A DNA stretch of 64,000 nucleotides from positions 1 to 64,000 of the forward strand of contig OZ244852.1 in NCBI GenBank assembly GCA_965220965.1, written 5' to 3'. The notes under the pieces were generated by a model. It worked only from the letters and a program-made list of their open reading frames with translations, was not told the DNA's origin and did no database searches. Of the stretch, positions 1 through 54,514 are shown in pieces. Positions within the stretch are counted from its first letter, which is position 1. Every line of letters starts with the position of its first letter. Source of the stretch: Candidatus Marinacidobacterium sp. Lineage in GTDB: Bacteria; Acidobacteriota; Vicinamibacteria; Marinacidobacterales; Marinacidobacteraceae. The position numbers and the translations under genes were made by a program.

Positions 1-2031
1 CTTCGCGAGCGTCGCCAGCCAGAGCGAGAGCTTGGCCAGGTCCACCGCCACCGGGTTCCGGTCCACTCCGTAGAGGCAACGCTCCGCCACCATCCGGCGG
101 GCGACGATCGTCTCGTCCTCTTTCGGTGGGACCCCCGGCGGCTTGCCGTGGAGCTTCCAGGCCTCCTGGAGGGCGTCGCCGAGCTGGCGGCAGGCCTCGA
201 CCAGGAACGCCCCGGAGCCCATCGCCGGGTCGCAGACCCTCAGATCGAGGATCTGTTCCGGCCGGAGCGTGGCTCCACCCGCGCGAAGCCGGGCGAGGAC
301 TGGTTCGAGCGTCCTTTTGACGATCGGCCCGGTCAGCGCCCTCGGCGTGTAGTGCGAACCGGAGCGCCGCCGCTCCTCGGTGGGCTGGAGGATGAGCGAT
401 CCGGGCGCCGCGATGTCCGGGGTCGCCGCGCGGTCCACGACCGGATCCAGCGCGGCGTGGAGCTGCTCCACCCCGGCCGCGGCCGCGACCGCCTTCAGAA
501 CCCGGTCGGTCAGCTTGCGGTCGGTGGCCTGCTGCACCCAGCGGCCCCGCGAGCCCGAGGGGGCGTCGAGCAGCGCCTGGAGGTCCACGATGCTGGGAGC
601 TCCGTGTTTCTTCGGCGACCGGATCGCGAGCGAGGGGCCCGAAGCCCGCTCCAGCCGGAAGCCCATCATCGTCTCGTAGACCGAGCCGATCTGCTCCACA
701 TCGAGCGCCCGGTAGGAAATCCGATCGCCGTCGAGGACGAGGAGTTTGCGCAACAGTTCGAGGACCGTCCCGTCGGAGACGCGCGGAACCTCGATCCGCT
801 CGTGGATCTGGCGGCCGCCGGCGCGCGGCCGGCCCTCGAGGAAGGGATGCCGGTCCGGATCGAAGAGCGCGCCATGTCGCGCCGGCAGCCGCATGTCCTC
901 CGCTTCGGCCCCGTCGTGCACCATGCGGAAGAGCGTCAGGAGCTGCGCCCACGCCCCGTAGCGCTGGTCCATCGTGTCGGGATGGAGCGCGTGGTCCGCG
1001 CGGAGACGCTGGAACAGCCTCGTGAGCGAGTAGTGCCGGACGAAGGTCTCGTCCTGGGGCAGAAGGTCCCGCTGCTCCGCGTAGAGGATGAAGACGAGCC
1101 GGAGGATGACCGCGAGCAGGCCCCGGTAGACCTCTTCCGGGGCGTCCTCCATCGTCTCCCGGAGGAGTTCGCCGCCAAGTTCGGCGTCGGCGGCGTCGAT
1201 CCCGCGCAGCAGCGCGTAGAGCCCTTCGAGAACCTGACCCGCGAGCTTGACGCTCACTTCGTTCTGGTATTTGCGGCTCTCCGCGAGGAGCGCCGGGAGG
1301 CGTTTCGTCGTGGGGAGCGTCAGCAGGCGGTTCTGGCGCAGCAGCAGCCGGAGCGCGGCGAGGAGCGGACGCCCGGCGGTCTCCGCCATCTGGGAGACCA
1401 CGAAATCGAGCTGGCCCGAGCTCTCGCCCCGGGGCGCCGAGATCAGCCGCAGGCGGCCGCCGCCCCAGACGATGCCCGCCGGGGTCCCCGTCTCCCGCAG
1501 CAGGCGCTCCATCCTCCCGCTCGGGCTGTCGCTGAGCCGACCTCTGCCCCTCGCCTCGAATGGCTTGTCGAGGTCCTGCTCCCGGCCGTAGTGGGAGACG
1601 AGGAGTTGCCACCGGGAGGCCTCCGCGTCGCCGCGGGCCGCGTCCGCCTTCGCCGCTTTCCCGGCCGCCGTCGCGCTCGGGGTGCGCCGGACGGCGAGGT
1701 CGGCGCTCAGAACCTCGTCGTACTCGGGCAGCGAGACCGTCGGGAGGCCCGTCGCGCCTCCGTTGCTCTCCACGTAGTCGTCGAGCGAGAAGTCCCAGTC
1801 CAGGACCTGCTCGGCGAACGCCCGGAACGCGGTCGCCGGAGGGACGCGCTGCGCCTTGTCATCGTCGAACTGCCTCCGCCACTCGCGGAGGCGCCGCTGA
1901 CCCTCGATGTCGCGCCGGGGCAGGACCGCCCCCGCCCGGACCAGCGCCGAAGGAGCGACCACCAGTCCGGTCGGCTGGATGAGCGCCAGCCAGTCCCGGT
2001 GGTCTCGCTGCTCCGGCGGGATGCGGGGCAC
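1..2031 (-). CDS. drmMI: N6-adenine DNA methyltransferase, DISARM class 1 DrmMI-like (partial, runs off left edge)
   Basis: Not in the ORF track; hand-translated in segments, all in one frame. GTG at 2031, 3 nt after the helicase stop. N-terminus PRIPPEQRDHRDWLALIQPTGLVVAPSAL, then ISYRALDVEQIGSVYE, RRRSGSHYTP, SAM-binding motif I LRVCDPAMGSGAFL, and CLYGVDRNPVAVDLAKLSLW at the window edge. Confidence 0.88.
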   Translation of the reverse strand, partial: MPRIPPEQRDHRDWLALIQPTGLVVAPSALVRAGAVLPRRDIEGQRRLREWRRQFDDDKAQRVPPATAFRAFAEQVLDWDFSLDDYVESNGGATGLPTVSLPEYDEVLSADLAVRRTPSATAAGKAAKADAARGDAEASRWQLLVSHYGREQDLDKPFEARGRGRLSDSPSGRMERLLRETGTPAGIVWGGGRLRLISAPRGESSGQLDFVVSQMAETAGRPLLAALRLLLRQNRLLTLPTTKRLPALLAESRKYQNEVSVKLAGQVLEGLYALLRGIDAADAELGGELLRETMEDAPEEVYRGLLAVILRLVFILYAEQRDLLPQDETFVRHYSLTRLFQRLRADHALHPDTMDQRYGAWAQLLTLFRMVHDGAEAEDMRLPARHGALFDPDRHPFLEGRPRAGGRQIHERIEVPRVSDGTVLELLRKLLVLDGDRISYRALDVEQIGSVYETMMGFRLERASGPSLAIRSPKKHGAPSIVDLQALLDAPSGSRGRWVQQATDRKLTDRVLKAVAAAAGVEQLHAALDPVVDRAATPDIAAPGSLILQPTEERRRSGSHYTPRALTGPIVKRTLEPVLARLRAGGATLRPEQILDLRVCDPAMGSGAFLVEACRQLGDALQEAWKLHGKPPGVPPKEDETIVARRMVAERCLYGVDRNPVAVDLAKLSLWLATLAK

Positions 2032-39982: not shown

Positions 39983-40790
39983 CCCGCACTCCGGCCAGCT
40001 TCCCGGCGTGGCCGATCGCGCTTCCGAAGGTCGCGAACTGCCAGAACATGCCGGGCAGGATGCCGATCACACAGAGGACGAGCGAGAACTCGGCGACGAT
40101 CGAGACGAAGATCAGGGTGAGCAGCAGCAGGACGTAGTTCCCGACGTGCTGCCGGATCCGGCCGAGGCTGTCCCCGAAGGCGAACCCCGACGCCAGCGAC
40201 CCGGTCGCAGCCAGGTTCGTCAGGCTGGCGGGCAGGACGGCCTTCACCAGCAGCGCCAGCAGGATGAGGAGCAGGATCGCGGAGAGCGCGATCAAGCCGC
40301 CGATCATCATGAGGCCCGGCGCGTCGTCGTGCTCGCCGATCCCGATCAGGAAGCCGCCGAAGAGGAACGGGATGAGCCCCGCCATGACCGCGACCGCGCC
40401 GTGGACCAGCACGATGACGGTGGCCTTCAGGCCGTCGACCAGGAGTCCGCCGAAGTCGCCCGCCCAGTCGGGCATCGGGTGCTCGTCGCCGCGCAGGACG
40501 CCGCGGGCGGTGTGGATCCCGTAGCCCATGAGGGCGAACAGCCCCAGTCCGAAGAACGGGATGAACAGGACCGCGATGGACCCGAGCACGAACTTGTTCA
40601 GGGCCTGCGGATCCCGGAACGGGAGCGCGAGCACGCCCGAGAAGTCGAAGCGCCCGGGGTCCGGTCCGGATCCGGCCGGGGGTGGAGGTGGAGGGGGCGG
40701 CGCGCCGCCTGCGCCGGCAGCGTCGCCGCCGGTCAGGGCGGGGGTCGAACCGGCGTCGGCCGCGCGCTCGGAAGCGTTCGATTCATCCAT
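39975..40790 (-). CDS. DUF4013-like membrane protein
   Basis: Pro-rich N-terminus, PFRD...K, GY....R, MPDW..DFG.LL.DGLK, several TM helices. Confidence 0.75.
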   Translation of the reverse strand: MDESNASERAADAGSTPALTGGDAAGAGGAPPPPPPPPAGSGPDPGRFDFSGVLALPFRDPQALNKFVLGSIAVLFIPFFGLGLFALMGYGIHTARGVLRGDEHPMPDWAGDFGGLLVDGLKATVIVLVHGAVAVMAGLIPFLFGGFLIGIGEHDDAPGLMMIGGLIALSAILLLILLALLVKAVLPASLTNLAATGSLASGFAFGDSLGRIRQHVGNYVLLLLTLIFVSIVAEFSLVLCVIGILPGMFWQFATFGSAIGHAGKLAGVRVS

Positions 40791-40845
40791 GTCTTGAGGT
40801 CCTTCCGGGGTCTCCGCCCCGCTATTCTTGCTACCACTAACGCAA

Positions 40846-43539
<2,694 letters not shown>

Positions 43540-43554
43540 ACCACGGGGGCGGTT

Positions 43555-44100
43555 TTGTCCACCGGCGCGCACTTTCGCCCCTGGATCGGGGAGCGATATC
43601 GCGTGGCGTCGGGGTTTGGGGTTCGTGTCCTCGTGGTGGGGGAGTCGCACTACGGCACGAAGGGGCAGGGAACAGACCGCGATTTCACTCACAGTTTGGT
43701 GTCAGGAATCGTCGACGGCGCCAAGCCGCCTGTCTTCTTCACGAAGGCGTCCAAGGTGCTGACGCTGGATGACGTTGGGAGCGCCCAGGTTTGGCGCGAC
43801 GTCGCGTTCTGCAACTACTTGCAGGTCTTTAAGGAGGCAAACCCACGGGGTACAGCGCCCCAGGAGGCTTGGGCCGCCAGCCGGTCGGCTCTGGACTGGA
43901 CCGTCGCGCAGCTAGATCCTCAGGTCATTCTGGTGCTGAGCAACCGAGTCGGCCACTACCTAGGGTTCAAGCCACTTCGAGGCCAGCCAACGGCCTTCTG
44001 CCACCATCCGAGCTCCAGCGGGCAGACTCGAGCGGCAAGGCAGGAGGAATTCCGCGTCGCGCTTGGGGATGCGGGCGGCGCCCCGTGGTCGCGTCCGTGA
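43555..44100 (+). CDS. uracil-DNA glycosylase superfamily-like protein
   Basis: FRPWIG..Y, RVLVVGESHY (motif A-like), AFCNY, LDPQVILVL, HHPSS (motif B-like). Visibly more A/T-rich than its flanks. Confidence 0.65.
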   Translation: MSTGAHFRPWIGERYRVASGFGVRVLVVGESHYGTKGQGTDRDFTHSLVSGIVDGAKPPVFFTKASKVLTLDDVGSAQVWRDVAFCNYLQVFKEANPRGTAPQEAWAASRSALDWTVAQLDPQVILVLSNRVGHYLGFKPLRGQPTAFCHHPSSSGQTRAARQEEFRVALGDAGGAPWSRP

Positions 44101-44120
44101 GGCGCGGCCCCTCGGCATTG

Positions 44121-44181
44121 CCGGTTGTCGTCGGATAGCGACAACGGCGGCCGGATTCGGCGAGGGAAAGGACTCGCCCGG
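44121..44181. other. two adjacent hairpins between convergent genes (possible terminator or processing site)
   Basis: GTTGTCG(44124-30)/CGACAAC(44139-45) and GGCGAG(44159-64)/CTCGCC(44173-78). No U-tract. Confidence 0.35.
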
Positions 44182-44246
44182 AGCAGCCTGCGCCCTAACC
44201 GACCAGGACTGGGGACGGGGAGAACAGGGGATTGACCCGCCGGGGC

Positions 44247-46190
44247 TCAGCGGGCCGAGGTCGGGGTCTCGCCGGCGAGGATGCGCTGGAAGACGCCCAT
44301 CTCGATGTTCCCGCCCGAGACCACGCAGACGAGCTTGCGGGGACGGTCCTCCTCTCCGGCGCGGCGCGGAACCCGGTCCTCGAGGACGGCGGCCAGCGGG
44401 CAGGCCCCGGCGCCTTCGGCGATGACCCGGGCGCGGGCGGCGAGGACCCGGACCGCCTCGGCGACCTCCTCCGGGGAGGTCACCAGCGGCTCGGCGAGCA
44501 GCTCGCGGACCAGCGGCCACATCGGGTCGAGAACGGTGTTGCCTCCGATCCCGTCCACGAAACTGGGGCTCGTGTCGATCCAGCGGGGGGCGCCGTCGGC
44601 CACCGCCGCCGAGACCTTGGCTGATGTCGAGACCTCCACCGGGTGGACCCGGGCGCCCGAGCCCGACTGACGCAGCGCGCTCGAGATCCCGCAGCTCAGC
44701 CCGCCGCCGCCGAACGGGACGAGCACCGCGTCCACCTCCGGTAGGTCCTCGAGGATCTCGAGGCCGGCGGTGCCGTTGCCGGCCATGACCGCCACCTCCT
44801 CCACCGGGTGGACGAACCGGGCGTCGAAGCCGGGGTGGCGGTGCGAGACGATGGCCTCCCACCACTCGGCGAACGGGGCCACCACGATCCGGGCGCCGAG
44901 CGCGGCGATCGCCTCGCGCTTGTTCTCCGGGGAGGTCTCGGGCACCACGACGGTGCACTCGACGCCCCGTTGGCGCGCCATGAACGCCACCGCCTGCGCC
45001 CAGTTGCCGGCGCTCGCGGTCATCACCCCGCGCTTCAGGTCGTCCTCGCCAAGCGAGTCGAAGAGCGCCGCCGCGCCGCGGATCTTGAACGAGGCGAACG
45101 GCTGGATGTTCTCCAGCTTGAGCCAGACCTCGTCCGGCCCGTTCCCCGGGAGCCGGACCATGGGCGTCCGCACTGCGAACGGGGCGATCGCCCGGCGAGC
45201 GGCCTGGATCGACTGGATCGGGATCATGCGCGGCGCGGAGTGTACGGGCCGGAGCCGGTCCCGGCGCCGCTCGGCGGCGGCCACCGTTCGCGGCCAGCTC
45301 TTCTTCAGCAGGACCGACATCCCGCGGTCCCGGAGCAGGCGCCCGCCGGTCTGGCACTTCGGGCAGTAGTTGAACTCGTTCTCGGCGCGGCGCACCCGCT
45401 GGACCCTGGTCCCGCAGTCGGGACACGGTTGGCCGAAGCGGCCGTGGACCGCCATCCCCTCGCGGAAGGCGGTGACTCTCGTGGGGAAGCCGTCGCCGCA
45501 CTCCTCGGCGAGCCGGGAGGTCCATTCCGTCAGGACCGAGACGGTGGCCTCGTGAAGCCGGGCGGTCTCCTCCGGGCTGAGGTTCCGGCACGGCTTCATC
45601 GGCGAGAGCCGCGCCGCGTGGAGGATCTCGTCCGACCAGGCGTTGCCGATCCCGGCGAATCGGGCCGGCTCGGTGAGCGCCCGCTTCAGCGTCCGGGTGG
45701 AGCCCGCCAGCCGGGCGGAGAACGCCGCGAGCGTCGAGCCCGGAACCTCGAGGCCACCGCGGTCGAGTTCCTCGAGCGCCGCCTTGCCTCGGCCCAACCG
45801 GATCGAGGCGCGCTTCTTCCGGCTGCGCTCGCGAAGCCGGAGCGCCCCGCCCTCCGGGCCGTCGCGGTCCGCCGGCCCGAACCGCCACTCGGCCAGGATC
45901 CCCCGCGGCGAGAGCCGGGGCTCGTCGCGGCGGCTCCCGGCAGGCGTCCACGAGAATCGGCCGGCGATCGCCAGGTGGATGGCGAAAAAGTGCTCTCCCT
46001 CGAACTCGAGCGCGAGCTGTTTGCCGATGCGGCGGACGTCCGTGGCCACGAGGCCCACGAGGTCCTCCGGCGGCGGGGCGACCGAGGCCAGCAGGTGGGG
46101 GGAGGCCACGCGGAAGCGGGTGAGCCGGGTCCCGAGGATCCGCCGCCGGATCGCTTCGCGGTAGACCTCGAGGTCGGGAAGCTCGGGCAA
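44247..46190 (-). CDS. in-frame fusion: Fpg/Nei DNA glycosylase (46190 to ~45230) plus PLP-dependent threonine/serine dehydratase-family enzyme (ATG 45227 to 44247)
   Basis: Fpg part: MPELPD, RIGK, H2TH GIGNAWSDEIL, Zn finger CPDC..CPKC. Dehydratase part: KLENIQPFASFKIRGA, SAGNWAQ, PFGGGGL, SGGN. No stop between them. Confidence 0.85.
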   Translation of the reverse strand: MPELPDLEVYREAIRRRILGTRLTRFRVASPHLLASVAPPPEDLVGLVATDVRRIGKQLALEFEGEHFFAIHLAIAGRFSWTPAGSRRDEPRLSPRGILAEWRFGPADRDGPEGGALRLRERSRKKRASIRLGRGKAALEELDRGGLEVPGSTLAAFSARLAGSTRTLKRALTEPARFAGIGNAWSDEILHAARLSPMKPCRNLSPEETARLHEATVSVLTEWTSRLAEECGDGFPTRVTAFREGMAVHGRFGQPCPDCGTRVQRVRRAENEFNYCPKCQTGGRLLRDRGMSVLLKKSWPRTVAAAERRRDRLRPVHSAPRMIPIQSIQAARRAIAPFAVRTPMVRLPGNGPDEVWLKLENIQPFASFKIRGAAALFDSLGEDDLKRGVMTASAGNWAQAVAFMARQRGVECTVVVPETSPENKREAIAALGARIVVAPFAEWWEAIVSHRHPGFDARFVHPVEEVAVMAGNGTAGLEILEDLPEVDAVLVPFGGGGLSCGISSALRQSGSGARVHPVEVSTSAKVSAAVADGAPRWIDTSPSFVDGIGGNTVLDPMWPLVRELLAEPLVTSPEEVAEAVRVLAARARVIAEGAGACPLAAVLEDRVPRRAGEEDRPRKLVCVVSGGNIEMGVFQRILAGETPTSAR

Positions 46191-46285
46191 TTTCTGGTGG
46201 ACCGGCGGTAGTCTCCCGCACCGGGATCTCCGCCTTCCACGGGTGCCGCCGCCGGGCGCGCCCCCCTTCTCCAGGGAGCACTTCG

Positions 46286-47068
46286 TTGTCCGAGAGCCAG
46301 TCCAGTTTCGCCGGCCGCGTCGCCATCGTCACCGGAGCCTCCAGCGGGATCGGCCGCGCCACCGCCGCCGCACTGGGCGCCGCCGGAGCCTCGGTCGCGA
46401 TCGCCGCCCGCCGCCCGGAGCGCCTCGAGGCGCTGGCGGGCGAGATCGAAGCCGCCGGCGGCGCCGCCCTTCCGCTGGCCGGGGACGTTACGGACCCGGG
46501 TTTCCGGTCCCGCCTCGTCGGGGAGACGGTGGACCGGTTCGGCGGCCTCGACCACCTGGTGAACTCGGCGGGAGTCATCGCCTTCGGCACGATCGAGGAC
46601 ACGACGCTCGAAGGCTGGCGCGGCATGTTCGCCCTGAACGTGGAGGCGGTCTTCGGGCTGATGAGCCTCGCGGTCCCGCACCTGCTGAAGCGGAGCGGCA
46701 GTGTGGTGAACGTGTCCAGCGTGAACGGGATGCGCTCCTTCCCGGGAGTGCTCGCCTACAACTCGAGCAAGTCGGCGCTGGACCAGCTCACCCGTTGCTC
46801 CGCCCTGGAGCTCGCGGCGAAGGGCGTCCGAGTGAACTCGGTGAACCCGGGCGTCACCCGGACCGAGCTCCACACCGCCGGCGGCCTCGACGCCGAGCGC
46901 TACGCCGCCTTCCTCGAGCGCAGCAAGACGACCCATCCCATCGGACGGGTGGGCACGCCGGAGGAGGTCGCGGGAGTCGCGCTCTTCCTGCTCTCGGACG
47001 CGGCGGCGTTCCTGACCGGAGTCACGATCCCGGTGGACGGCGGACGGCACCTGACCTGCGCCCGGTAG
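46286..47068 (+). CDS. SDR family oxidoreductase
   Basis: TGASSGIG, NSAG, NVSS, YNSSK, VRVNSVNPG, PVDGG. Confidence 0.93.
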   Translation: MSESQSSFAGRVAIVTGASSGIGRATAAALGAAGASVAIAARRPERLEALAGEIEAAGGAALPLAGDVTDPGFRSRLVGETVDRFGGLDHLVNSAGVIAFGTIEDTTLEGWRGMFALNVEAVFGLMSLAVPHLLKRSGSVVNVSSVNGMRSFPGVLAYNSSKSALDQLTRCSALELAAKGVRVNSVNPGVTRTELHTAGGLDAERYAAFLERSKTTHPIGRVGTPEEVAGVALFLLSDAAAFLTGVTIPVDGGRHLTCAR

Positions 47069-47184
47069 GTCGGGGGCGCGGCAGGGTGGCTCAGCCGCTG
47101 CGGCGCCCGATTCGAGCTTCGGATCTGCGGGATGACGCGCCGCTCCGCGACACCTTCCTGAAGTCAGCCGAAGGGTCGGCCCCC

Positions 47185-47718
47185 TCAAGCGTTCGCTTCG
47201 CGCCGCAGGTTCCTTGCGGTGGGGGCGGCGCGACCAGGTCCCGCGTCGCGATGGACCCGATCGTTCATCGCCCCGATCAGATCCTGGGGCGGAAGCGGTC
47301 TCCGCTCGGCCCGGGCGCTCGCATCGAGGGCGCGCCGTGTCGCCGGCCTGCTCACTGCGCCGCGTCCGAGGCGCGCGCCTGCTTCCTGGTATTCCTCCTC
47401 GGCGAGAGGGTCGAAGGGCGACCGGCCGTGGGACACATCGAGGAGACGGGAGCGGTTGCGCTGCGTGTCGCCGGAATCGGCCCGGCGGACGACCTCCAGG
47501 ATCGCCATCAGGCGCCGCTCCAGGGCGGGGTTCATGGGCCTGCCGCTGACCCAGAAGAGCACGCTCTGTCGGGAGACTCCGAAGAGTTGCGCAAGTTGCG
47601 CCCAGGTCAATGCTGACCTGCGGCGCAGTTCGGAGATCGCCCGGCTTGTGCTGAGGCCGGCAGCCCGGGCGACGGCTGCGCCCGGTCGACCTGAGGCGGT
47701 CGGATGGTCGTTCGTCAT
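47185..47718 (-). CDS. XRE-family helix-turn-helix protein
   Basis: ATG at 47718. ISELRRRSALTWAQLAQLFGVSRQSVLFWVSG is a Cro/C1-type HTH. Confidence 0.75.
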   Translation of the reverse strand: MTNDHPTASGRPGAAVARAAGLSTSRAISELRRRSALTWAQLAQLFGVSRQSVLFWVSGRPMNPALERRLMAILEVVRRADSGDTQRNRSRLLDVSHGRSPFDPLAEEEYQEAGARLGRGAVSRPATRRALDASARAERRPLPPQDLIGAMNDRVHRDAGPGRAAPTARNLRREANA

Positions 47719-47719
47719 C

Positions 47720-47950
47720 TCAGTCGCTTCCGGCGGCGTCGCCAGTCGCGGCCTGCGCGCGGAGGCGTTCGAGCGCCTCCTCGGCGTAGCCGATGACCGC
47801 CCCTTCGTATTCGGCGACGACGCGTTCGAGGAGCGGGATGGCGCGGGTCTCCCGGAACTCGGCGAGCTGGAAGAAGAGCGTGATCGCGAGTCCGGGCGCG
47901 GGGAAGTAGCGGTCCTCGAGCGAGCGCTCCGCCAGCCGTTTCCGCCCGGC
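47720..47950 (-). pseudogene. start-less gene fragment with a HEAT/PBS-lyase-like helical repeat
   Basis: Hand-translated AGRKRLAERSLEDRYFPAPGLAITLFFQLAEFRETRAIPLLERVVAEYEGAVIGYAEEALERLRAQAATGDAAGSD*. Host-like G/C third positions. No ATG/GTG/TTG start (only CTG at 47935). Stop lies 1 nt before the HTH ATG. Confidence 0.55.
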
Positions 47951-47980
47951 TGTCCTGTTGCGGTGGGAGCTGCGCGCCCT

Positions 47981-48238
47981 TCAGGCCTCACAGTAGTCCT
48001 GACACACGTTGTAGTGCAGGCCGCAGTACAACAGATCCAGGTCGTAGTCCGCCCAGCACTGATCCCGGTCGGACTGGCTTGTGGCCTGACTCAGGCAACT
48101 CGTGCGCGTGGACTGCGCGTTCCATCTGCACGTCCAGTATTCCGAGACGCAGAGCTGACAGAGTTGCGCCGTGGATCGCGTCGGGAGAGTCAATGCCACG
48201 GCAGCCCCCAGGGCCAGGCCCGCTATGAGCCGGATCAT
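47981..48238 (-). CDS. small secreted cysteine-rich protein (85 aa, 8 Cys)
   Basis: Signal peptide MIRLIAGLALGAAVALTLPTRSTA|Q. Mature part C-x2-C-x6-C-x10-C-x12-C-x10-C-x6-C-x3-C. Confidence 0.8.
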   Translation of the reverse strand: MIRLIAGLALGAAVALTLPTRSTAQLCQLCVSEYWTCRWNAQSTRTSCLSQATSQSDRDQCWADYDLDLLYCGLHYNVCQDYCEA

Positions 48239-48256
48239 TTTCGTGGCGGGTCGCCA

Positions 48257-48694
48257 TCAAGAAGGCGGGCGACCTCTTCGGGGGGGGTAGCCCGCGTCGA
48301 GGAAGATCCGGGCGGCCCTCTCCTCCTTCGCGCGGATCCTTCGCCGGAGCGCGTCCATCGTGAACCACTCGGCCGGCTGCGTCCGGATGTCCGCGATCAT
48401 TCGTTCCAGACCATTCCGGCGCATGTAGGCGATGTAGTCCTCGGACCGGCCGGCTTCCCTCCACGCCTTCGCCCTTCGGTCAAAGTCTGCCCGGGTCCGT
48501 TCCTCAAGCGCCTCCCGATGCGCCAGCGAACCGGGGGCGACGCCTCCGTCGCCTCCGGGGCCGGACGATCGCCGCGTCACATTCGGAGCGGGAAGCGTTG
48601 TGGGCGGCTCCCCCTCCGGAATCGGACCGCACGCCACCACGGTGATTGGCCCCGCAGCCACCGCTGCGAGGACCGCGAGAGCAATTCGGTTCAC
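48257..48694 (-). CDS. hypothetical lipoprotein (C-terminus probably frameshifted at a C8 tract; corrected end 48235)
   Basis: GTG at 48694 after an AGGGAGG RBS. Lipobox-like VVAC, Pro/Gly linker, helical C-terminal domain. Confidence 0.72.
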   Translation of the reverse strand: MNRIALAVLAAVAAGPITVVACGPIPEGEPPTTLPAPNVTRRSSGPGGDGGVAPGSLAHREALEERTRADFDRRAKAWREAGRSEDYIAYMRRNGLERMIADIRTQPAEWFTMDALRRRIRAKEERAARIFLDAGYPPRRGRPPS

Positions 48695-48865
48695 AGACCT
48701 GTACCTCCCTTGGGACGCCCTGGGCGCATTGGTCGGGGCAGGCGACGCCTCCCACGACATCCCGCGCCGGCGCCGTGTGCGCCGGCGGCTTCATGCCCTG
48801 AGACCCTGTTCATGCCATCACCCCTGAAGGCGACACCCGGCCGCTTCCCCCAGCGGCTCACTGTG

Positions 48866-48894
48866 GGTCTAGCGCAGCGCTACACGGTTGTCAA
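48866..48894 (-). promoter_or_regulatory. sigma70-type promoter with palindromic operator for the 48.7-47.2 kb cluster
   Basis: TTGACA(48894-89)-N17-TAGACC(48871-66). Perfect palindrome TAGCGC-A-GCGCTA at 48870-48882. Confidence 0.65.
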
Positions 48895-48955
48895 GTGACC
48901 TGGGCCATCGGCCATCGGGGCATCAGGGAGCCGCCTCCGCGACAGACACCGCCGA

Positions 48956-48985
48956 TTGACAGGTTCCGCGCCCGGCCCGTAGTCT
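48956..48985 (+). promoter_or_regulatory. sigma70-type promoter for the CocE/NonD gene
   Basis: TTGACA(48956-61)-N18-TAGTCT(48980-85). Confidence 0.65.
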
Positions 48986-49052
48986 CGGGCCTTCGCCCGG
49001 AGGCGGTCCGACGAGAGCCGCCTTGCCCTGGGCGACGCGCGGGAGGCGACGG

Positions 49053-50858
49053 ATGGCTTCGAAGAGCACGAGGATCCTGATCGGGCTGGGCTCGTTTGCG
49101 GTCGCGCTGATGGTCAGCGCGAGCGCGGCGGCGCAGCCGGTGAGTTGCGAGGAAGTCATGGTCCCCATGCGGGACGGCGTGCAGCTCGCCACCGATGTCT
49201 ACATGCCGGTGAACCAGGGGGACGGCCCGTTCCCGGTCATCCTCGAGCGCACGCCCTATAACAAGGGCGACTGCGACAACGAGCACGCGCTCTACTTCGC
49301 GTCGCGCGGCTACGTCGCGGTCCGTCAGGACGAGCGCGGCCGCTACGACTCCGAGGGCGTCTACTACTGGCTGCTCGACGAGGGCTGGGGCGAGCGTCAG
49401 GACGGCTACGACACGATCGAGTGGGCCGGAACCCAGCCCTGGTCCACCGGGAAGGTCGGCACGATGGGGCTGTCCTTCACCTGCTTCAACCAGTACCTGA
49501 CCGCGCCGACCCGGCCGCCGCATCTGGCCGCGATGTTCTGCGCTCACTCGGCGTCCAACGCCTACAAGGATCTCTACTGGGCGGGCGGGGCGCTCCACAT
49601 GATCATGCCCACCTGGCTGCTGACCCAGAACGAGATGGTCCAGCCGGTGCGGCTCTACGACCCCGGGCGGAGGGGCGGCTACGTCGGCGGCGAGGCGACC
49701 TGGCTCGAATGGCACCAGCGGCGCCTCGAGACCGGGGCCTCCATGTCCCAGAGCATGATCACCACGATGATGACGGACATGATCGAAAACCCGTACTACA
49801 ACGACTACTGGCGGCAGTACGCGGTGGACGAGCACTGGGACGAGATCGATGTGCCGATCTTCCACTACGCCAGTTGGTACGACCGGTATCCGCACTCGCA
49901 GGTCAAGCACTACAACGGCATCCGGACCCAGGGTCGTCCGGGCGCCCGCGACAGCCAGAAGCTCTATATCGGCCCCTGGATCCACGGGGCCGGGATGGTC
50001 ACGAACCGCGTCATCGGCGACATGGACTTCGGCCCGGAAGCGGCGATCGACTACAACGGCCTCCGCCAGCGGTGGTTCGACTACCACCTGAAGGGCATCG
50101 ACAACGGCGTCATGGACGAGCCGCCGGTCGAGATCTTCGTCATGGGCGCGAACACCTGGCGCCACGAGAACGAGTATCCGCTGGCCCGCCAGGTGCTGAC
50201 CGACTACTACTTCCGGGCGGACGCTTCCGGCTCGGTGGCGTCGCTCAACGACGGGACGCTTTCCACGGAGCCGCCGGGGGACGAACCGTCGGTCACCTAC
50301 GCCTACGACCCCCGCGACCCGGTTCCCTCGATCGGCGCCGATCTGTTCGTCCGGCCGAACGGGGCGCAGGACCACCGCCCGGCCGACGTCCGGAGCCTCA
50401 CCTTCACGACCCCGGTGCTGGACCAGGATGTCGAGGTGACCGGCCTTCCGATGGTCGAGCTCTGGGCCTCATCGAGCGCGGTGGACACCGACTGGACCGT
50501 GGCCCTCACCGATGTCCACCCCGACGGCTACTCGCAGATCCTGCGGCAGAACATCCTGCGCGCCCGCTACCGGGAGGGAGACGAGGCGCCCGTCCTGATG
50601 ACTCCGGGCGAGGTCTACCGCTTCCAGATCTGGATGTACCCGGTCTCCAACCTGTTCAAGGCCGGCCACCGCATCCGGCTTACGGTGTCGAGCAGCGCGT
50701 TCCCCAAGTGGTATCCGAACGGCAACACCGGCCGGGAGATGAACGAGGACCTGCCGGTGATCATCGCCAACAACACCGTCTACCTCGACGCCGACCGCCC
50801 CTCGAAGGTCGTCCTGCCGATCATCCCGGCGGGGAGCGCCGCCGCCGAACCGCAGTGA
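49053..50858 (+). CDS. secreted CocE/NonD family hydrolase (peptidase S15)
   Basis: Signal peptide, VPMRDGVQLATDVY, RTPY, QDERGRYDSEG, QPWSTGKVG..GLSF, SWYD, GPWIH, PepX C-terminal domain. Confidence 0.92.
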   Translation: MASKSTRILIGLGSFAVALMVSASAAAQPVSCEEVMVPMRDGVQLATDVYMPVNQGDGPFPVILERTPYNKGDCDNEHALYFASRGYVAVRQDERGRYDSEGVYYWLLDEGWGERQDGYDTIEWAGTQPWSTGKVGTMGLSFTCFNQYLTAPTRPPHLAAMFCAHSASNAYKDLYWAGGALHMIMPTWLLTQNEMVQPVRLYDPGRRGGYVGGEATWLEWHQRRLETGASMSQSMITTMMTDMIENPYYNDYWRQYAVDEHWDEIDVPIFHYASWYDRYPHSQVKHYNGIRTQGRPGARDSQKLYIGPWIHGAGMVTNRVIGDMDFGPEAAIDYNGLRQRWFDYHLKGIDNGVMDEPPVEIFVMGANTWRHENEYPLARQVLTDYYFRADASGSVASLNDGTLSTEPPGDEPSVTYAYDPRDPVPSIGADLFVRPNGAQDHRPADVRSLTFTTPVLDQDVEVTGLPMVELWASSSAVDTDWTVALTDVHPDGYSQILRQNILRARYREGDEAPVLMTPGEVYRFQIWMYPVSNLFKAGHRIRLTVSSSAFPKWYPNGNTGREMNEDLPVIIANNTVYLDADRPSKVVLPIIPAGSAAAEPQ

Positions 50859-50883
50859 GTCCGGCGGCGACGCCGATCGTCGC

Positions 50884-52710
50884 CTACCAGCCGATCGCGT
50901 AGGCGGCGCGGCGTGGGTCGGCGCCGGCGGCCAGCGTGCCCCTGGCGAGGCTCTTCAGGATCCCGTTGTTGCTCCCGAGCGCCCAGCCGCCGGTGAACTC
51001 CGCCGTGTGGCCGAGCGCGGTGAGCGCGTCCACGCTCCCCGCCGGGGCGCGCCCCTCGATGCGGACCAGGATGTCGGCGCCGGGTGTGTAGAAGTTCGGA
51101 TCGGCGAACAGCGAGAGGCGCGGCGCGGCCACCGCCTCCTGGATCCCCATCCCGAAGTCGAGGATGTTCAGCAGGACCTGGAACTGGGTCTGCCCGATCG
51201 TCTCGCCGCCGGGAGTTCCGAGCGCCAGCACGAACCCGCCGTCCCGCAGCACGATGATCGGCGAGTTGTTCAGGATCGGGATCTGCCCCCCGCGGGCGTA
51301 GTTGGGGTGCTCCGCCCAGGGAGCGGTCGAGCCGATGCGGGTCCCGTTGTTGAAGGTGAGCCCGGTGCCTCCGACGACGACGCCGGTCCCGAACATGCCG
51401 CCGTGGGTCGGGGTGCAGGCCACCGCGTTCCCCTGGGGGTCCACGATCGAGAAGCTCGTCGTGCTGCCACCGAAGGCGCGGACTTCCGGTCCGTCGGCGG
51501 GAGGCAGGAAGGCCTCCGTGGCCTCGGCGCCCGGCGGTTCCCCACCGGCCGGATAAGCGATGGCGGCTTCGCGGGCGATGAGATCCCGGCGTCCCTCGGC
51601 GTAGGCCTTGGAGAGCATGCCCTCCACCGGCACCTCGAAACGCGTGGGGTCAGCGGTGTACCGATACACGTCCGCCTTGGCGACCTTGATCGCCTCCACG
51701 ATCAGATGGAGGGTCTCGGGGGAGTTGTGGCCGAGCGCCGCCAGATCGAAGCCCTCGATCAGGTTGAGCTGCATCAGGACCTCGAGTCCGCCCCGCGAGG
51801 TCGGGGGGCTCGAGTAGACGTCGTAGCCCCGGTAGGTCGTGTGGACCGCGTCGGTCCAGCGGGGCTCGTAGGCGGCGAAGTCCTCGAGCCGGAAGTCGCC
51901 GCCGTTGTCCTCGTAGAACGCCGCCATCTCCTCGGCGATGTCCCCCTTGTAGAAGCGGTCGAACGCGGCCTGGAGCGCCTCGGTCCGGCTCTTCCCGGCG
52001 GCGAGGGCGTCCCGCTCGGCGTCCACCAGCTTCTGGAAGGTGTTCGCGAGATCGGGCATCCGGAAGTTCTCGCCGACCTCGGGAGGTTCGCCGCCCGGGA
52101 GGAAGACCCGGGCGCTCGTCGGGTGGGCCTCGAAGACCTCGCGGGAGGCGTGGATCGACTGGACGACCGAAGCCTCGATCGGGTGGCCGTTCCTCGCGTA
52201 GTCGAGCGCCGGTTCCAGCACCTCGCCGAGCCGCATCGTGCCGAAGTTCTCCAGCAGCGAAATCCAGCCGCCAAACAGGCCCGGCACGACGCCGGCGTGG
52301 ATCCCCTTGTTCAGTTGCCCGGGCGTGAGGGTGTCCGCCTGGAGCGCGCGCGGCGCCGCGCCGGTGGCGCTCAGCGAGCGGACGCTTCCGGTCGAGGCCT
52401 CGAACCAGGTGAGGAACCCGTTCCCGGAAGCTCCCGACATCTGGGGCCGCACCACGTGAAGCGTCGAGAGAACCGCCACCGAGGCGTCGATGGCGTTCCC
52501 GCCGCGCATCAGGATCCGGACTCCGGCCATCGTGGCGAGCGGGTGCCCGGCGGTGACCAGCCCGTGGACGCCGGGCGCCTCCGGTCGGTTCGTGGGCCGC
52601 TGCTCGGCGAAGCGGATCGGATGGGCGGCTTCCTGGCCGGAAGCCGGAGCCGTCGCGAGAAGTCCGGCCGCCGCCAGGACCGCCGTCAGGGGAAAGAGCC
52701 GGTGGATCAC
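50884..52710 (-). CDS. ggt: gamma-glutamyltransferase family protein (secreted)
   Basis: GTG at 52710 after GAGGAGG. Signal peptide, GGNAIDA, VPG, FYKGDIA, autocleavage site STTSFSIVD, GTPGG, GADPRR. Confidence 0.88.
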   Translation of the reverse strand: MIHRLFPLTAVLAAAGLLATAPASGQEAAHPIRFAEQRPTNRPEAPGVHGLVTAGHPLATMAGVRILMRGGNAIDASVAVLSTLHVVRPQMSGASGNGFLTWFEASTGSVRSLSATGAAPRALQADTLTPGQLNKGIHAGVVPGLFGGWISLLENFGTMRLGEVLEPALDYARNGHPIEASVVQSIHASREVFEAHPTSARVFLPGGEPPEVGENFRMPDLANTFQKLVDAERDALAAGKSRTEALQAAFDRFYKGDIAEEMAAFYEDNGGDFRLEDFAAYEPRWTDAVHTTYRGYDVYSSPPTSRGGLEVLMQLNLIEGFDLAALGHNSPETLHLIVEAIKVAKADVYRYTADPTRFEVPVEGMLSKAYAEGRRDLIAREAAIAYPAGGEPPGAEATEAFLPPADGPEVRAFGGSTTSFSIVDPQGNAVACTPTHGGMFGTGVVVGGTGLTFNNGTRIGSTAPWAEHPNYARGGQIPILNNSPIIVLRDGGFVLALGTPGGETIGQTQFQVLLNILDFGMGIQEAVAAPRLSLFADPNFYTPGADILVRIEGRAPAGSVDALTALGHTAEFTGGWALGSNNGILKSLARGTLAAGADPRRAAYAIGW

Positions 52711-52721
52711 GAGCTGCCTCC

Positions 52722-54407: not shown

Positions 54408-54514
54408 CGGCGCGCGTCCTTTCGCTGCCGTCTTGCGGTCAGCCGACCGACACTATCAGACGGGGCGGTCGTTTCCGCCGCTTCCCGACCCCTGTTCGGG
54501 GGCCGGAACAAGGG

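What the first reader, a model, noticed from the sequence alone, without database searches (positions are those of the whole stretch)
47185..48894. Compact accessory operon: operator-controlled promoter, lipoprotein, secreted disulfide mini-protein, HEAT-like fragment, XRE-HTH
Seen: four co-directional, tightly packed units under one near-consensus sigma70 promoter, inserted between an SDR gene and a CocE gene. None except the HTH matches a family I recognise. Inference: an undescribed secreted-peptide module, with the peptide as toxin, signal or host effector, the lipoprotein as immunity, receptor or chaperone, and the HTH as regulator. It may be a variable cassette locus remodelled by replacement.
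Basis: partly seen in the sequence, partly recalled or inferred. Interest (0 to 1): 0.7.

Follow-up and report, generated by a model that had tools for sequence, protein, structure and literature searches.

The report
Lipoprotein and disulfide-hairpin pair in hotspot
A variable spot in a marine-type Acidobacteria genome carries a very rare two-gene pair, a membrane-anchored lipoprotein predicted to grip a small exported disulfide-stapled helical hairpin, next to leftovers of two unrelated gene cassettes.

Summary
The four co-directional units exist at the stated coordinates, but they are a mosaic, not one conserved operon. The interval between the SDR and the S15-peptidase (CocE-type) genes (47070-49118) is a genus-level hotspot. 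Two same-genus genomes keep both flanks but carry an ABC-3C system or two AAA/STAND-TPR ATPases there.

The real module is the first two genes:
- LP: a lipoprotein, 48694-48257, 145 aa.
- MP: a Sec-type 85-aa precursor, 48238-47981. Its 61-aa acidic mature part models as a two-helix hairpin with 8 cysteines in mirror spacing.

LP and MP are adjacent again in one genome of another genus. MP shows purifying selection (dN/dS 0.15). The pair scores 0.87 in the complex test (best control 0.01). Both families are tiny: 3 MP sequences, and about 10 LP sequences in 1.84 billion representatives. Neither has a Pfam or PDB relative.

The HEAT-like unit is a start-less 3' remnant of a ~190-aa gene. The HTH is an orphan of a TIGR04255-HTH-307-aa module. 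The promoter is half-consensus, and the operator is unsupported by comparison.

Function is unknown. My best guess (about 0.35) is an exported hairpin effector plus a binding, immunity-like lipoprotein.

The parts
47070..49118 (.). Variable interval (hotspot cargo) between the conserved SDR and the S15-peptidase genes
   Evidence: blastn to same-genus G002 and G001 stops at 47069/47073 and resumes at 49152/49119. Their intervals (4.3 and 3.7 kb) hold other genes.
48866..48894 (-). Candidate promoter: -35 TTGACA (48894..48889), 17-nt spacer, -10 TAGACC (48871..48866)
   Evidence: Read. The consensus scan reported 0 sites because the -10 matches only 3 of 6 positions.
48870..48882 (.). 13-nt perfect palindrome TAGCGCAGCGCTA overlapping the spacer and -10; candidate operator, unproven
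   Evidence: 1 match in the window; 11 of 100 shuffles give at least 1. It is absent from the HTH homologue's locus L014 at up to 2 mismatches. Among 47 loci it occurs only in the 8 that are copies of the window.
48257..48694 (-). LP: lipoprotein gene (145 aa; GTG start 9 nt after GGGAGG at 48709..48704; a longer ATG start at 48760 is possible). Signal peptide + lipobox VVAC, ~35-aa disordered linker, basic three-helix domain
   Evidence: P0003, 145 aa; family alignment; model: helices 55-78, 83-103, 106-131; domain pI 10.9; profile search.
47981..48238 (-). MP: 85-aa precursor of a 61-aa acidic mature protein. Two-helix hairpin with Cys 27, 30, 37, 48 | 61, 72, 79, 83
   Evidence: 7 of the 8 Cys columns invariant in 3 sequences; 8 of 8 in two; pLDDT 95-98 over residues 31-80; pI 4.2; dN/dS 0.15; complex with LP.
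47720..47980 (-). HEAT-like 3' remnant: 86 codons with no start codon, in the MP frame right after its TGA. Residues 16-75 (47756-47935) align to the C-terminal end of longer proteins
   Evidence: (no ATG/GTG/TTG; GC3 0.885). (aligns to 131-187 of a 188-aa protein, E 2e-9). (E 2e-13). (that homologue scores HEAT_2 26.4 bits against a cut-off of 27.7).
47185..47718 (-). HTH gene (177 aa): N-terminal helix-turn-helix plus a conserved ~100-aa C-terminal region. It is an orphan member of a family that normally sits in a three-gene module
   Evidence: weak HTH matches; family alignment A5; neighbours elsewhere; dN/dS 0.41.
47214..47235 (.). Copy 1 of a 22-nt imperfect direct repeat (inside the HTH 3' end)
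   Evidence: D1, 86%. 2 of 100 shuffles reach 19 of 22.
47958..47979 (.). Copy 2 of the 22-nt repeat, directly after the MP stop. A possible recombination scar bracketing the remnant+HTH block
   Evidence: MP DNA homology to G012 ends at 47985.

Best explanation
The block is mosaic cargo in a genus-level variable hotspot, not one conserved four-gene operon.

Its working core is a two-gene module. LP is a lipid-anchored protein with a long flexible tether and a basic three-helix domain. MP is Sec-exported and matures to a 61-residue acidic alpha-helical hairpin. Its eight cysteines sit in mirror-image spacing (3, 7, 11 | 11, 7, 4). They should therefore pair as four rungs (27-83, 30-79, 37-72, 48-61), made outside the cytoplasm by the genome's VKOR/DsbA-like oxidase. 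The LP helices are predicted to clamp mainly helix 2 of MP into a five-helix bundle.

Most likely mechanism: MP is an exported effector peptide (toxin-like or signal-like), and LP is its cognate binder that holds or neutralises it at the membrane, in an immunity-like role.

Downstream, the HEAT-like frame is a dead 3' remnant. The HTH gene is an orphan torn from a TIGR04255-HTH-307-aa module. It may read through from the LP promoter and may have been co-opted as a regulator.

What is shown: the gene anatomy, hotspot replacement, LP-MP adjacency in a second genus, purifying selection, rarity, and the remnant and orphan status.
What is predicted: the folds and the LP-MP complex.
What is inferred: the disulfide pairing, the compartment, and the effector/immunity role.

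My odds are about 0.85 for the anatomy, 0.7 for LP binding MP, and 0.35 for the effector/immunity reading.
For: Hotspot.
- Synteny with G001 and G002 breaks at 47069-47073 and 49119-49152.
- Their cargo is DUF2326+CTD10, MC6 and HNH_2 (ABC-3C) in one, and AAA_16/AAA_22 plus an AAA_16-TPR protein in the other.
- Cargo GC3 is 0.76-0.885, against 0.93-0.94 in the flanks.

The pair.
- In G012, LP (L002 1743..2303) and MP (1450..1746) overlap by 4 nt.
- MP is found with LP in 2 of 2 inspectable loci. LP is found with MP in 2 of 3 (G005 lacks MP).
- MP mature core: dN/dS 0.15. LP: 0.19.
- Complex: ipSAE 0.86, 0.88 and 0.87, best of 3 controls 0.01. Partner pLDDT is at least 88 and the runs agree in at least 91% of contacts. 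The mark was reached by 116 of 157 solved complexes and 2 of 215 mismatched pairs; these counts hold only roughly, because my own alignments were used.
- No PDB relative by sequence profile at E up to 1 beyond chance-level rows. A pass from memory of a solved complex is therefore unlikely.
- Charges are complementary: MP pI 4.2-4.6; the MP-partnered LP domains have pI 10.9 and 9.95; the solo G005 LP has pI 6.4.
- MP model: helices 23-51 and 55-84, with pLDDT 95-98 over residues 31-80.
- Oxidase: VKOR and Thioredoxin_4 matches lie in one 434-aa frame.

Immunity-like pattern.
- LP relatives outnumber MP relatives: 7 domain-level LP relatives plus 3 genome copies, against 3 MP sequences.
- One LP stands alone (G005), as orphan immunity genes do. 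That comparison rests on established knowledge of bacteriocin loci, not on a test here.

Remnant and orphan.
Against: - No function was tested.
- MP is acidic, unlike most membrane-active peptides.
- The gene order (binder first) is not the usual bacteriocin order.
- No exporter, processing or lysis gene lies in the interval.
- There is no PADLOC hit other than a 15-bit chance-level row.
- The pair evidence rests on one other genome, and the context of the third MP (P0002) could not be fetched.
- Alignments for the folds and the complex are only 2-3 rows deep.
- P0002 lacks Cys30, so the four-rung ladder is not strictly conserved.
- dS is about 1.2-2.7 and near saturation, so the dN/dS values are rough.
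- Fold searches gave only generic helical-hairpin matches.
Confidence: 0.5

Rival explanations
1. One reading: one four-unit operon in which the XRE-type HTH is the dedicated repressor. It binds the palindrome in a near-consensus promoter and controls lipoprotein, peptide and a HEAT-like protein together.
For: All units are co-directional, with gaps of 18, 0 and 1 nt and no terminator-like site. A perfect -35 and a unique palindrome sit in the spacer/-10. The window's HTH is the only one of 13 aligned sequences to differ at three otherwise uniform positions of the second HTH helix (R51Q, H54L, A57V). That could reflect a new DNA target.
Against: The HTH family sits in another module in 5 of 6 other loci, and never beside LP or MP. 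G012's LP-MP pair has no HTH or HEAT-like gene. The HEAT-like unit has no start codon and lacks about 130 N-terminal residues. The palindrome is absent from all relatives' loci, and 11 of 100 shuffles give such a match. The -10 matches 3 of 6 positions.
Confidence: 0.15
2. LP-MP is an envelope-located anti-phage (exclusion-type) pair. A lipoprotein and a periplasmic partner block a receptor or DNA entry, and the pair sits in what is a defence hotspot.
For: The same hotspot holds an ABC-3C system in G001 and AAA/STAND-like TPR ATPases in G002. The distribution is sporadic: MP in 2 of 55 and LP in 3 of 55 genomes of the order. Small exclusion lipoproteins of phages are known (recalled, not tested).
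Against: No PADLOC family matches. There are no phage or plasmid matches for LP or MP. No prophage genes, integrase or tRNA lie nearby. Hotspots also carry non-defence cargo.
Confidence: 0.15
3. LP-MP is a non-antagonistic accessory envelope complex. It could be a stress or redox buffer, or the cysteines of MP (perhaps as a dimer forming a four-helix bundle) could bind metal, as in cysteine-lined copper storage proteins.
For: All eight Cys lie on one face of each helix (spacing read). One relative has 7 Cys, which is easier to tolerate for a metal site than for a disulfide ladder. G005 keeps LP alone. MP is acidic.
Against: No Pfam match to any metal-binding or copper-storage family at E up to 1. 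The mirror spacing fits pairwise cross-hairpin bonds. Export by a Sec signal into an oxidising compartment with a VKOR/DsbA-like oxidase favours disulfides. The rarity and the hotspot location fit accessory conflict genes better than a physiological buffer.
Confidence: 0.25
4. The whole block is decaying junk: none of the four units is functional any more.
For: The HEAT-like unit is a remnant. The HTH lacks the N-terminal ~65 residues that 10 of the 12 aligned relatives have, and it deviates at three near-invariant positions. No RNA evidence exists.
Against: LP and MP frames are intact, with all 8 Cys conserved against G012 and dN/dS of 0.15-0.19. A good SD precedes LP. The complex prediction is strong. 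HTH dN/dS is 0.41 with its invariant columns kept.
Confidence: 0.05

Closest known systems
Plant alpha-hairpinin antimicrobial peptides (e.g. Ec-AMP1)
   Same: Helix-loop-helix with antiparallel helices tied by cross-hairpin disulfides. The family definition was read in passages of PMC4695807, section 2.5; the MP model is.
   Different: Alpha-hairpinins are Lys/Arg-rich, about 33-50 aa, with a CXXXC-(X)n-CXXXC motif and two disulfides. MP is acidic (pI 4.2) and bacterial. It has 8 Cys spaced C-x2-C-x6-C-x10-C ... C-x10-C-x6-C-x3-C, helices of about 30 residues, and a dedicated lipoprotein partner. No sequence relation was found.
CHCH / twin-CX9C hairpin proteins of the mitochondrial intermembrane space (recalled, no call)
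   Same: A disulfide-stapled helix-turn-helix, oxidised after export into an oxidising compartment. The inner Cys pairs of MP form a twin motif.
   Different: The inner spacing of MP is CX10C rather than CX9C. It has two extra outer pairs, a Sec signal, and a bacterial host. No Pfam CHCH match appeared at E up to 1.
Bacteriocin plus lipoprotein-immunity pairs (e.g. lantibiotic LanI-type lipoproteins; recalled, no call)
   Same: An exported small peptide encoded beside a lipoprotein that is expected to bind it. Sporadic, accessory distribution, and solo 'immunity-like' copies (G005).
   Different: There is no homology and no modification, exporter or lysis genes. The peptide uses a Sec signal, the binder gene comes first, and the host is a diderm phylum. 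Killing activity is untested.
XRE-family HTH regulators / MqsA- and HipB-type antitoxins
   Same: An N-terminal HTH with weak matches to HTH_3, HTH_28 and TIGR03830.
   Different: All matches fall below the curated cut-offs. The conserved ~100-aa C-terminal region has no family. Its usual neighbours are a TIGR04255 protein and a 307-aa protein without Pfam, NCBIfam or PADLOC hits. No toxin partner is present in the window.

Membership tests
Bacterial lipoprotein (LP) | N-terminal signal peptide ending in a lipobox with an invariant Cys | tested here: met
   Read from the sequence: MNRIALAVLAAVAAGPITVVAC|G. 8 of 10 rows of alignment A3 carry ..[VIFA]AC at the same column; the other 2 (P0005, P0009) lack the N-terminus. 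No LipoP/SignalP-type predictor was available.
Sec-exported protein (MP) | Positively charged n-region, hydrophobic core, small residues at -3/-1 | tested here: met
   MIRLIAGLALGAAVALTLPTRSTA|QLC. The same layout occurs in 3 of 3 family members. This is rule-based reading only.
Disulfide-stapled alpha-hairpin (structural class) | Two antiparallel helices with Cys pairs facing each other | tested here: inconclusive
   The model gives helices 23-51 and 55-84 with pLDDT 95-98 over residues 31-80. The Cys spacing is mirror-symmetric. Coordinates could not be inspected and no chemistry was done. One member lacks Cys30.
Plant alpha-hairpinin | CXXXC-(X)n-CXXXC motif; Lys/Arg-rich | tested here: not met
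   Only the C-terminal pair is CX3C (79, 83); the N-terminal pair is CX2C (27, 30). K+R is 3 against D+E 8, with pI 4.19. The definition comes from PMC4695807 passages.
HEAT repeat protein (Pfam HEAT_2, PF13646) | Match over the gathering score; complete gene | tested here: not met
   The window fragment matches 0 families at E up to 1. Its G021 homologue scores 26.4 bits against a cut-off of 27.7. The frame has no start codon and covers only the last ~60 residues of the 188-aa relative.
XRE-type HTH (Pfam HTH_3, PF01381) | Match over the gathering score | tested here: inconclusive
   HTH_3 scores 21.0 bits against 23; HTH_28 scores 22.9 against 25. The HTH region is invariant across 13 family members.
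Type II antitoxin (MqsA TIGR03830 / HipB-like TIGR03070) | Match over the cut-off and an adjacent toxin gene | tested here: not met
   18.0 bits against 61.8 and 14.9 against 71.65. No gene lies between the HTH stop (47185) and the SDR stop (47068).
Known anti-phage defence systems (PADLOC-DB) | Any component model matched | tested here: not met
   Across the 4 proteins the only row is LP against WYL/Csx1, E 0.0031, 15.3 bits. The library dates from 2023.
   Among 41 relatives' genomes, the strong matches were MP in G012, LP in G012 and G005, the HEAT-like unit in G021 and G022, and HTH in G004. Only LP and MP share a locus. No LP, MP or HEAT-like match occurs in the 6 HTH loci.
Cysteine-lined copper storage proteins (Csp; recalled) | Pfam family match; four-helix bundle lined with Cys | tested here: inconclusive
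   No Pfam match at E up to 1 other than two chance-level rows. The oligomeric state was not modelled.

The most novel reading that the evidence does not exclude
LP-MP is a previously undescribed kind of exported effector/immunity pair. The effector is a four-disulfide alpha-hairpin peptide made by a diderm bacterium through the Sec pathway. It is held or neutralised by a tethered three-helix lipoprotein, and the pair moves as a two-gene cassette between hotspots of marine-type Acidobacteriota. The hairpin would be the first bacterial counterpart of the disulfide-stapled helical-hairpin toxins and antimicrobial peptides of plants and animals.
Probability: 0.3. Interest if true: 0.7.

Novelty: new variant of a known kind. 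Interest (0 to 1): 0.45.

Why it matters
If the pair works as proposed, it adds a new fold class to bacterial exported effectors: a long, four-rung disulfide-stapled alpha-hairpin. It also adds a new type of lipoprotein binder, in a phylum (Acidobacteriota) whose interference and defence biology is almost unknown. The hairpin is small, probably very stable, and comes with a predicted high-confidence partner, so it is a tractable system for structural and binding work.

Independently of function, the locus is a clear example of a genus-level integration hotspot in Acidobacteriota. It swaps ABC-3C, STAND-type ATPases and this pair, and it leaves datable scars: a truncated gene, an orphan regulator and a 22-nt repeat.

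If the pair turns out to be an ordinary envelope accessory, the finding is of modest interest.

Tried and rejected
Family and fold searches.
- Pfam, NCBIfam and PADLOC on the four proteins gave only sub-threshold HTH rows and chance-level rows. These included 12-13-bit rows to Stx2 B-subunit models against cut-offs of 165-204, which I read as chance.
- Foldseek against the PDB gave no match at E up to 0.001 for MP or LP.
- VIA-align wide gave a best Z of 8.7 (MP) and 7.3 (LP), all generic helical hairpins and below the level the tool calls meaningful for helical proteins.
- PDB profile searches with A3, A4 and A5 found nothing significant.
- ESM Atlas: the best MP score was 0.82, to unnamed clusters. 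There was no usable hit for the LP domain.

Wider sequence searches.
- Metagenome contigs with the LP profile: 34 pattern matches, 0 relatives.
- Metagenome contigs with the MP profile: 190 pattern matches and 1 'relative' (L034). It lies inside a 241-aa ORF without the Cys pattern, so I rejected it as false.
- Genome contigs with LP: 32 pattern matches and 2 relatives, L032 and L033. Both record titles name Acidobacteria MAGs, and no new locus type appeared.
- Phylum samples of 401 genomes: MP in 1 of 401 and LP in 1 of 401, the window only. In one search only 9 candidates per genome were scored.
- Weak MP rows in G033 and G029 (E 0.005 and 0.0097, each with an in-frame TAG) and weak LP rows in G014 and G009 were treated as chance.
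- Plasmid and phage collections gave no match for MP or LP.
- Contig lengths of cluster members gave no sign that P0002 shares a contig with any LP representative.

Other checks.
- Rfam: 0 matches at E up to 1. No tRNA lies in 40000-56000.
- No RNA holder was listed for the stretch, so expression and co-transcription are untested.
- Earlier findings of this scan: nothing by place or by sequence.
- Literature searches (listings and abstract starts only, except passages of PMC4695807) found no description of such a pair, and 0 papers mention TIGR04255.
- I had recalled the protein downstream of MP in G012 as TldD-like. Pfam gave 0 families, so I dropped the label.
Full report
ANATOMY

The window is about 70% G+C. 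All four units of the finding lie on the minus strand between an adh_short SDR gene (46286-47068, +) and a Peptidase_S15+PepX_C gene of the CocE/NonD type (49023-50858, +).

In the direction of transcription the units are as follows.

1. Candidate promoter.
- It reads TTGACA (48894..48889), a 17-nt spacer, then TAGACC (48871..48866).
- The consensus scan reports 0 promoter-like and 0 terminator-like sites in 46900-49200, because the -10 matches only 3 of 6 positions and lacks the final T.
- A perfect 13-nt palindrome, TAGCGCAGCGCTA (48870-48882), overlaps the spacer and the -10.
- It is unique in the 64-kb window, but 11 of 100 shuffles give at least one match.

2. LP.
- The ORF can start at ATG 48760, but GTG 48694 lies 9 nt after GGGAGG.
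- That start gives the 145-aa protein the public gene call also has (P0003).
- It reads MNRIALAVLAAVAAGPITVVAC|G, a lipoprotein signal with a lipobox. This is read by rule; no predictor was run.

3. MP.
- After an 18-nt gap comes MP (48238..47981), 85 aa.
- It has a Sec-type signal (..PTRSTA|QLC) and a 61-aa mature part with 8 Cys.

4. HEAT-like frame.
- It follows directly after the MP TGA, in the same frame, as an open frame of 86 codons (47980..47720).
- It contains no ATG, GTG or TTG at all, yet has coding-like composition (GC3 0.885, GC2 0.54).

5. HTH.
- One base after the HEAT-like stop comes the ATG of a 177-aa HTH protein (47718..47185).

Assembly check: one contig from each of two runs of two studies covers 46800-49300 with no difference. 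One of them may be the assembly's own source.

THE LOCUS IS A HOTSPOT

Two genomes of the same genus (G001, G002) have the SDR (85% aa identity) and the peptidase (82%) in the same order. DNA similarity stops at 47069-47073 and resumes at 49119-49152.

Between those points each genome holds different cargo.
- G001 holds a DUF2326+CTD10 protein, an MC6 protein and an HNH_2 protein, which together form an ABC-3C system.
- G002 holds an AAA_16/AAA_22 ATPase and a 924-aa AAA_16-wHTH-TPR protein.

The window's cargo has lower GC3 (0.76-0.885) than the flanking genes (0.93-0.94). No tRNA lies within 40000-56000, and no Rfam match was found.

THE FOUR UNITS DO NOT TRAVEL TOGETHER

Among 41 relatives' genomes, counting G000, the results were:
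- MP: 4 of 41 at E up to 0.01. Only G012 is convincing (6.9e-34, 72% identity). The G033 and G029 rows (E 0.005 and 0.0097, each with an in-frame TAG) I take as chance.
- LP: 5 of 41, convincing in G012 (4e-33) and G005 (2e-31).
- HEAT-like: 3 of 41 (G021 at 3.9e-9, G022 at 8.2e-7).
- HTH: 7 of 41, convincing only in G004 (8.6e-51).

Only LP and MP share a locus. In G012 the LP homologue (L002 1743..2303) overlaps the MP homologue (1450..1746) by 4 nt. Neither an HTH gene nor a HEAT-like gene is nearby. In G005, LP stands alone, and no Cys-rich ORF of 25 aa or more follows it.

Profile searches give:
- MP in 2 of 28 genomes of the family, 2 of 55 of the order, and 1 of 401 of a phylum sample.
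- LP in 3 of 55 of the order and 1 of 401 of the phylum sample. In one search only 9 candidates per genome were scored.

HEAT-LIKE UNIT

Residues 16-75 align to residues 131-187 of a 188-aa protein of G022 (E 2e-9) and to 140-199 of the G021 homologue (E 2e-13). In that stretch the G021 protein scores HEAT_2 at 26.4 bits, just under the 27.7 cut-off.

The window copy therefore lacks about 130 N-terminal residues and has no start codon. It is a 5'-truncated remnant. Being in frame with MP across the TGA has a one-in-three chance expectation. Read-through is not excluded, but nothing supports it.

HTH UNIT

The word-indexed search found 25 proteins at E up to 0.001 among 3319 candidates, the window's own included. 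None of them carries an informative name: one is labelled only 'hypothetical protein' and the rest have none. Pfam matches stay under the cut-offs (HTH_3 21.0 vs 23; HTH_28 22.9 vs 25), and no PDB relative was found.

Ten of the 12 aligned relatives are about 230-245 aa, with an N-terminal ~65 residues that the window copy lacks. Two relatives are as short as the window copy.

A profile search found the family in 6 of 401 genomes of the phylum sample. I inspected 6 loci outside the window (G004, G150, G226, G113, G296, G313).
- In 5 of them the HTH gene lies between a 267-aa protein and a 307-aa protein.
- In the sixth (G113), only fragments of the 307-aa gene are present.
- None has an LP, MP or HEAT-like match.

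The 267-aa protein is a TIGR04255 family protein (162.7 bits against a cut-off of 30). The 307-aa protein has no Pfam, NCBIfam or PADLOC match. The window has neither neighbour, since only 116 bp separate the HTH stop from the SDR stop. The HTH here is therefore an orphan of another module.

The orphan may still work.
- It keeps all invariant columns, and its dN/dS against G004 is 0.41.
- It is the only one of 13 sequences to differ at three otherwise uniform positions of the second HTH helix (R51Q, H54L, A57V).
- That fits either relaxed constraint or a changed target.

The palindrome of the window is absent from L014 at up to 2 mismatches. Among 47 fetched loci it occurs only in the 8 that are copies of the window. 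The 'operator' remains a guess.

A POSSIBLE SCAR

A 22-nt imperfect direct repeat (19 of 22) lies at 47214-47235, inside the HTH 3' end, and at 47958-47979, directly after the MP stop. It brackets the remnant+HTH block. Only 2 of 100 dinucleotide shuffles reach 19 of 22. MP's DNA similarity to G012 ends at 47985, the last sense codon.

THE LP-MP PAIR

MP.
- Three family members are known: the window, G012, and P0002 from the 5.8-billion-protein collection. That search gave 2 proteins at E up to 0.01 among 8 candidates.
- 49 columns are invariant. All 8 Cys are shared by the window and G012; P0002 has Tyr in place of Cys30.
- The two relatives carry a 16-residue Pro-rich tail after ..CEA that the window copy lacks.
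- The AlphaFold model (2-row alignment) has mean pLDDT 83.2, with 95-98 over residues 31-80. It shows two helices, 23-51 and 55-84.
- The Cys positions (27, 30, 37, 48 | 61, 72, 79, 83) are mirror-symmetric about the turn, with spacings of 3, 7, 11 and 11, 7, 4.
- From this I infer four cross-hairpin disulfides: 27-83, 30-79, 37-72 and 48-61. This is an inference; I could not inspect the coordinates.
- The genome has VKOR and Thioredoxin_4 matches in one 434-aa frame (68.9 and 70.2 bits) and no DsbB match. Extracytoplasmic disulfide formation is therefore plausible.
- The mature core is acidic (pI 4.2-4.4).
- dN/dS against G012 is 0.15, although dS of about 1.2 is near saturation.
- In a crude genome-wide scan, 5 ORFs of 50-140 aa passed a signal-peptide rule with at least 6 Cys. 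Two of them have coding-like composition, and MP is the only one that is not an evident membrane protein.

LP.
- A 3-sequence profile, read against 1.84 billion representatives, found 11 proteins at E up to 0.001 (8 at up to 1e-10; 5 at up to 1e-30).
- One of the 11 is the window's own protein.
- Two are long repeat proteins with many short stretches (P0010, P0012).
- One matches only the signal and linker (P0011).
- Seven share the domain (P0004-P0009, P0013).
- Eight of the 10 aligned rows have the lipobox Cys; the other two lack the N-terminus.
- The model shows a disordered residue range 1-47 and helices 55-78, 83-103 and 106-131, with pLDDT 91-97 over residues 51-120.
- The domain is strongly basic in the two MP-partnered copies (pI 10.9 and 9.95) and near neutral in the solo G005 copy (6.4). 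With n = 3 this is only a hint.
- Record titles of the two loci found in genome contigs name Acidobacteria MAGs.

Complex.
- LP residues 50-143 and MP residues 25-85 (numbering of alignments A1 and A2) scored ipSAE 0.86, 0.88 and 0.87. The best of 3 controls was 0.01.
- The partner pLDDT was at least 88, and the runs agree in at least 91% of contacts.
- The mark was reached by 116 of 157 solved complexes and 2 of 215 mismatched pairs in the tool's calibration. That calibration holds only roughly here, because my own shallow alignments were used.
- The model supports binding; it does not show it.
- The contacts involve LP residues 65-72, 85-97 and 111-135, and MP residues 28-38 and 59-78, so mainly MP helix 2.
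- No sequence relative of either chain is in the PDB, which makes a pass from memory unlikely.
- Fold searches gave only generic hairpins: no Foldseek match at E up to 0.001, and VIA best Z of 8.7 (MP) and 7.3 (LP).

INTERPRETATION

The anatomy (about 0.85). This is a mobile two-gene LP-MP module, sitting in a hotspot beside a dead gene fragment and an orphan regulator.

The function is unknown. I commit to this reading at about 0.35: MP is an exported effector peptide, and LP is a tethered binder that holds or neutralises it.

In favour of that reading:
- the predicted tight complex with complementary charges;
- coupled, binder-first expression (a 4-nt overlap in G012);
- the accessory, sporadic distribution in a conflict-gene hotspot;
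- more LP relatives than MP relatives, including a solo LP, as with orphan immunity genes;
- the resemblance of a disulfide-stapled helical hairpin to plant alpha-hairpinins, whose definition I read in passages of PMC4695807.

Against it:
- the peptide is acidic;
- no exporter, processing or lysis gene is present;
- there is no route across the outer membrane;
- there is no assay.

Rivals:
- a non-antagonistic envelope, redox or metal complex (0.25);
- an exclusion-type anti-phage pair (0.15);
- decay (0.05).

NOVELTY

Neither LP nor MP matches any Pfam, NCBIfam, PADLOC or PDB family. Four literature searches found no description of such a pair (listings and abstract starts only). In terms of what it probably works like, it is a new variant of the 'exported peptide plus cognate lipoprotein' theme. 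Membership of any known family was tested and not met.

Noticed in passing
window 44247-46190 (-): A 647-aa protein fuses Fpg/Nei DNA-glycosylase domains (Fapy_DNA_glyco, H2TH) to a PALP (PLP-dependent, threonine-dehydratase-type) domain. The whole fusion is kept at about 80% identity in the same-genus genomes G001 and G002.
   Followed up: partly
L014 455-2842; L039, L040, L043, L044: A conserved three-gene module: a TIGR04255 family protein, this HTH family, and a 307-aa protein with no family match. It occurs in 5 of 6 inspected Acidobacteriota loci across several families. 0 papers mention TIGR04255.
   Followed up: partly
L027 4686-7545 (G001) and L026 3991-8106 (G002): The same SDR/peptidase hotspot holds an ABC-3C system (DUF2326+CTD10, MC6, HNH_2) in one congener. 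In the other it holds an AAA ATPase plus a 924-aa AAA_16-wHTH-TPR protein.
   Followed up: partly
window 47214-47235 and 47958-47979: A 22-nt imperfect direct repeat (19/22) brackets the HEAT-like remnant plus the HTH gene. In the HTH frame both copies read G-R-A-A-P-T-A. Only 2 of 100 shuffles reach 19/22. It may be a recombination scar.
   Followed up: partly
L012 1111-1677 (G022); L011 730-2313 (G021): Full-length relatives of the HEAT-like remnant share a conserved N-terminal stretch (..FYTYCANHPYRRP.RDP.PIGPILRPG..), and the G022 copy also has a Cys-rich start (..CCGTCWFN..). Each lies next to, and convergent with, a gene for a large protein (478 aa in G022) that has no Pfam match in the G022 copy tested.
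   Followed up: no
window 47185-47718 (HTH residues 51, 54, 57): The window's HTH is the only one of 13 aligned family members to differ at three otherwise uniform positions of the second HTH helix (R51Q, H54L, A57V).
   Followed up: no
G000 C1:518598-519773 (outside the window): VKOR and DsbA-like Thioredoxin_4 matches lie in one 434-aa open frame, and no DsbB match was found in the 94%-complete genome. This suggests a fused VKOR-type disulfide oxidase.
   Followed up: partly
P0002 (MP relative, context not retrievable): The third MP family member has Tyr in place of the second cysteine while keeping its presumed partner Cys79, which leaves 7 Cys.
   Followed up: no
window 43555-44100 (+): A 181-aa ORF next to the Fpg-PALP gene has no Pfam match at E up to 1e-5. 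It was not examined further.
   Followed up: no
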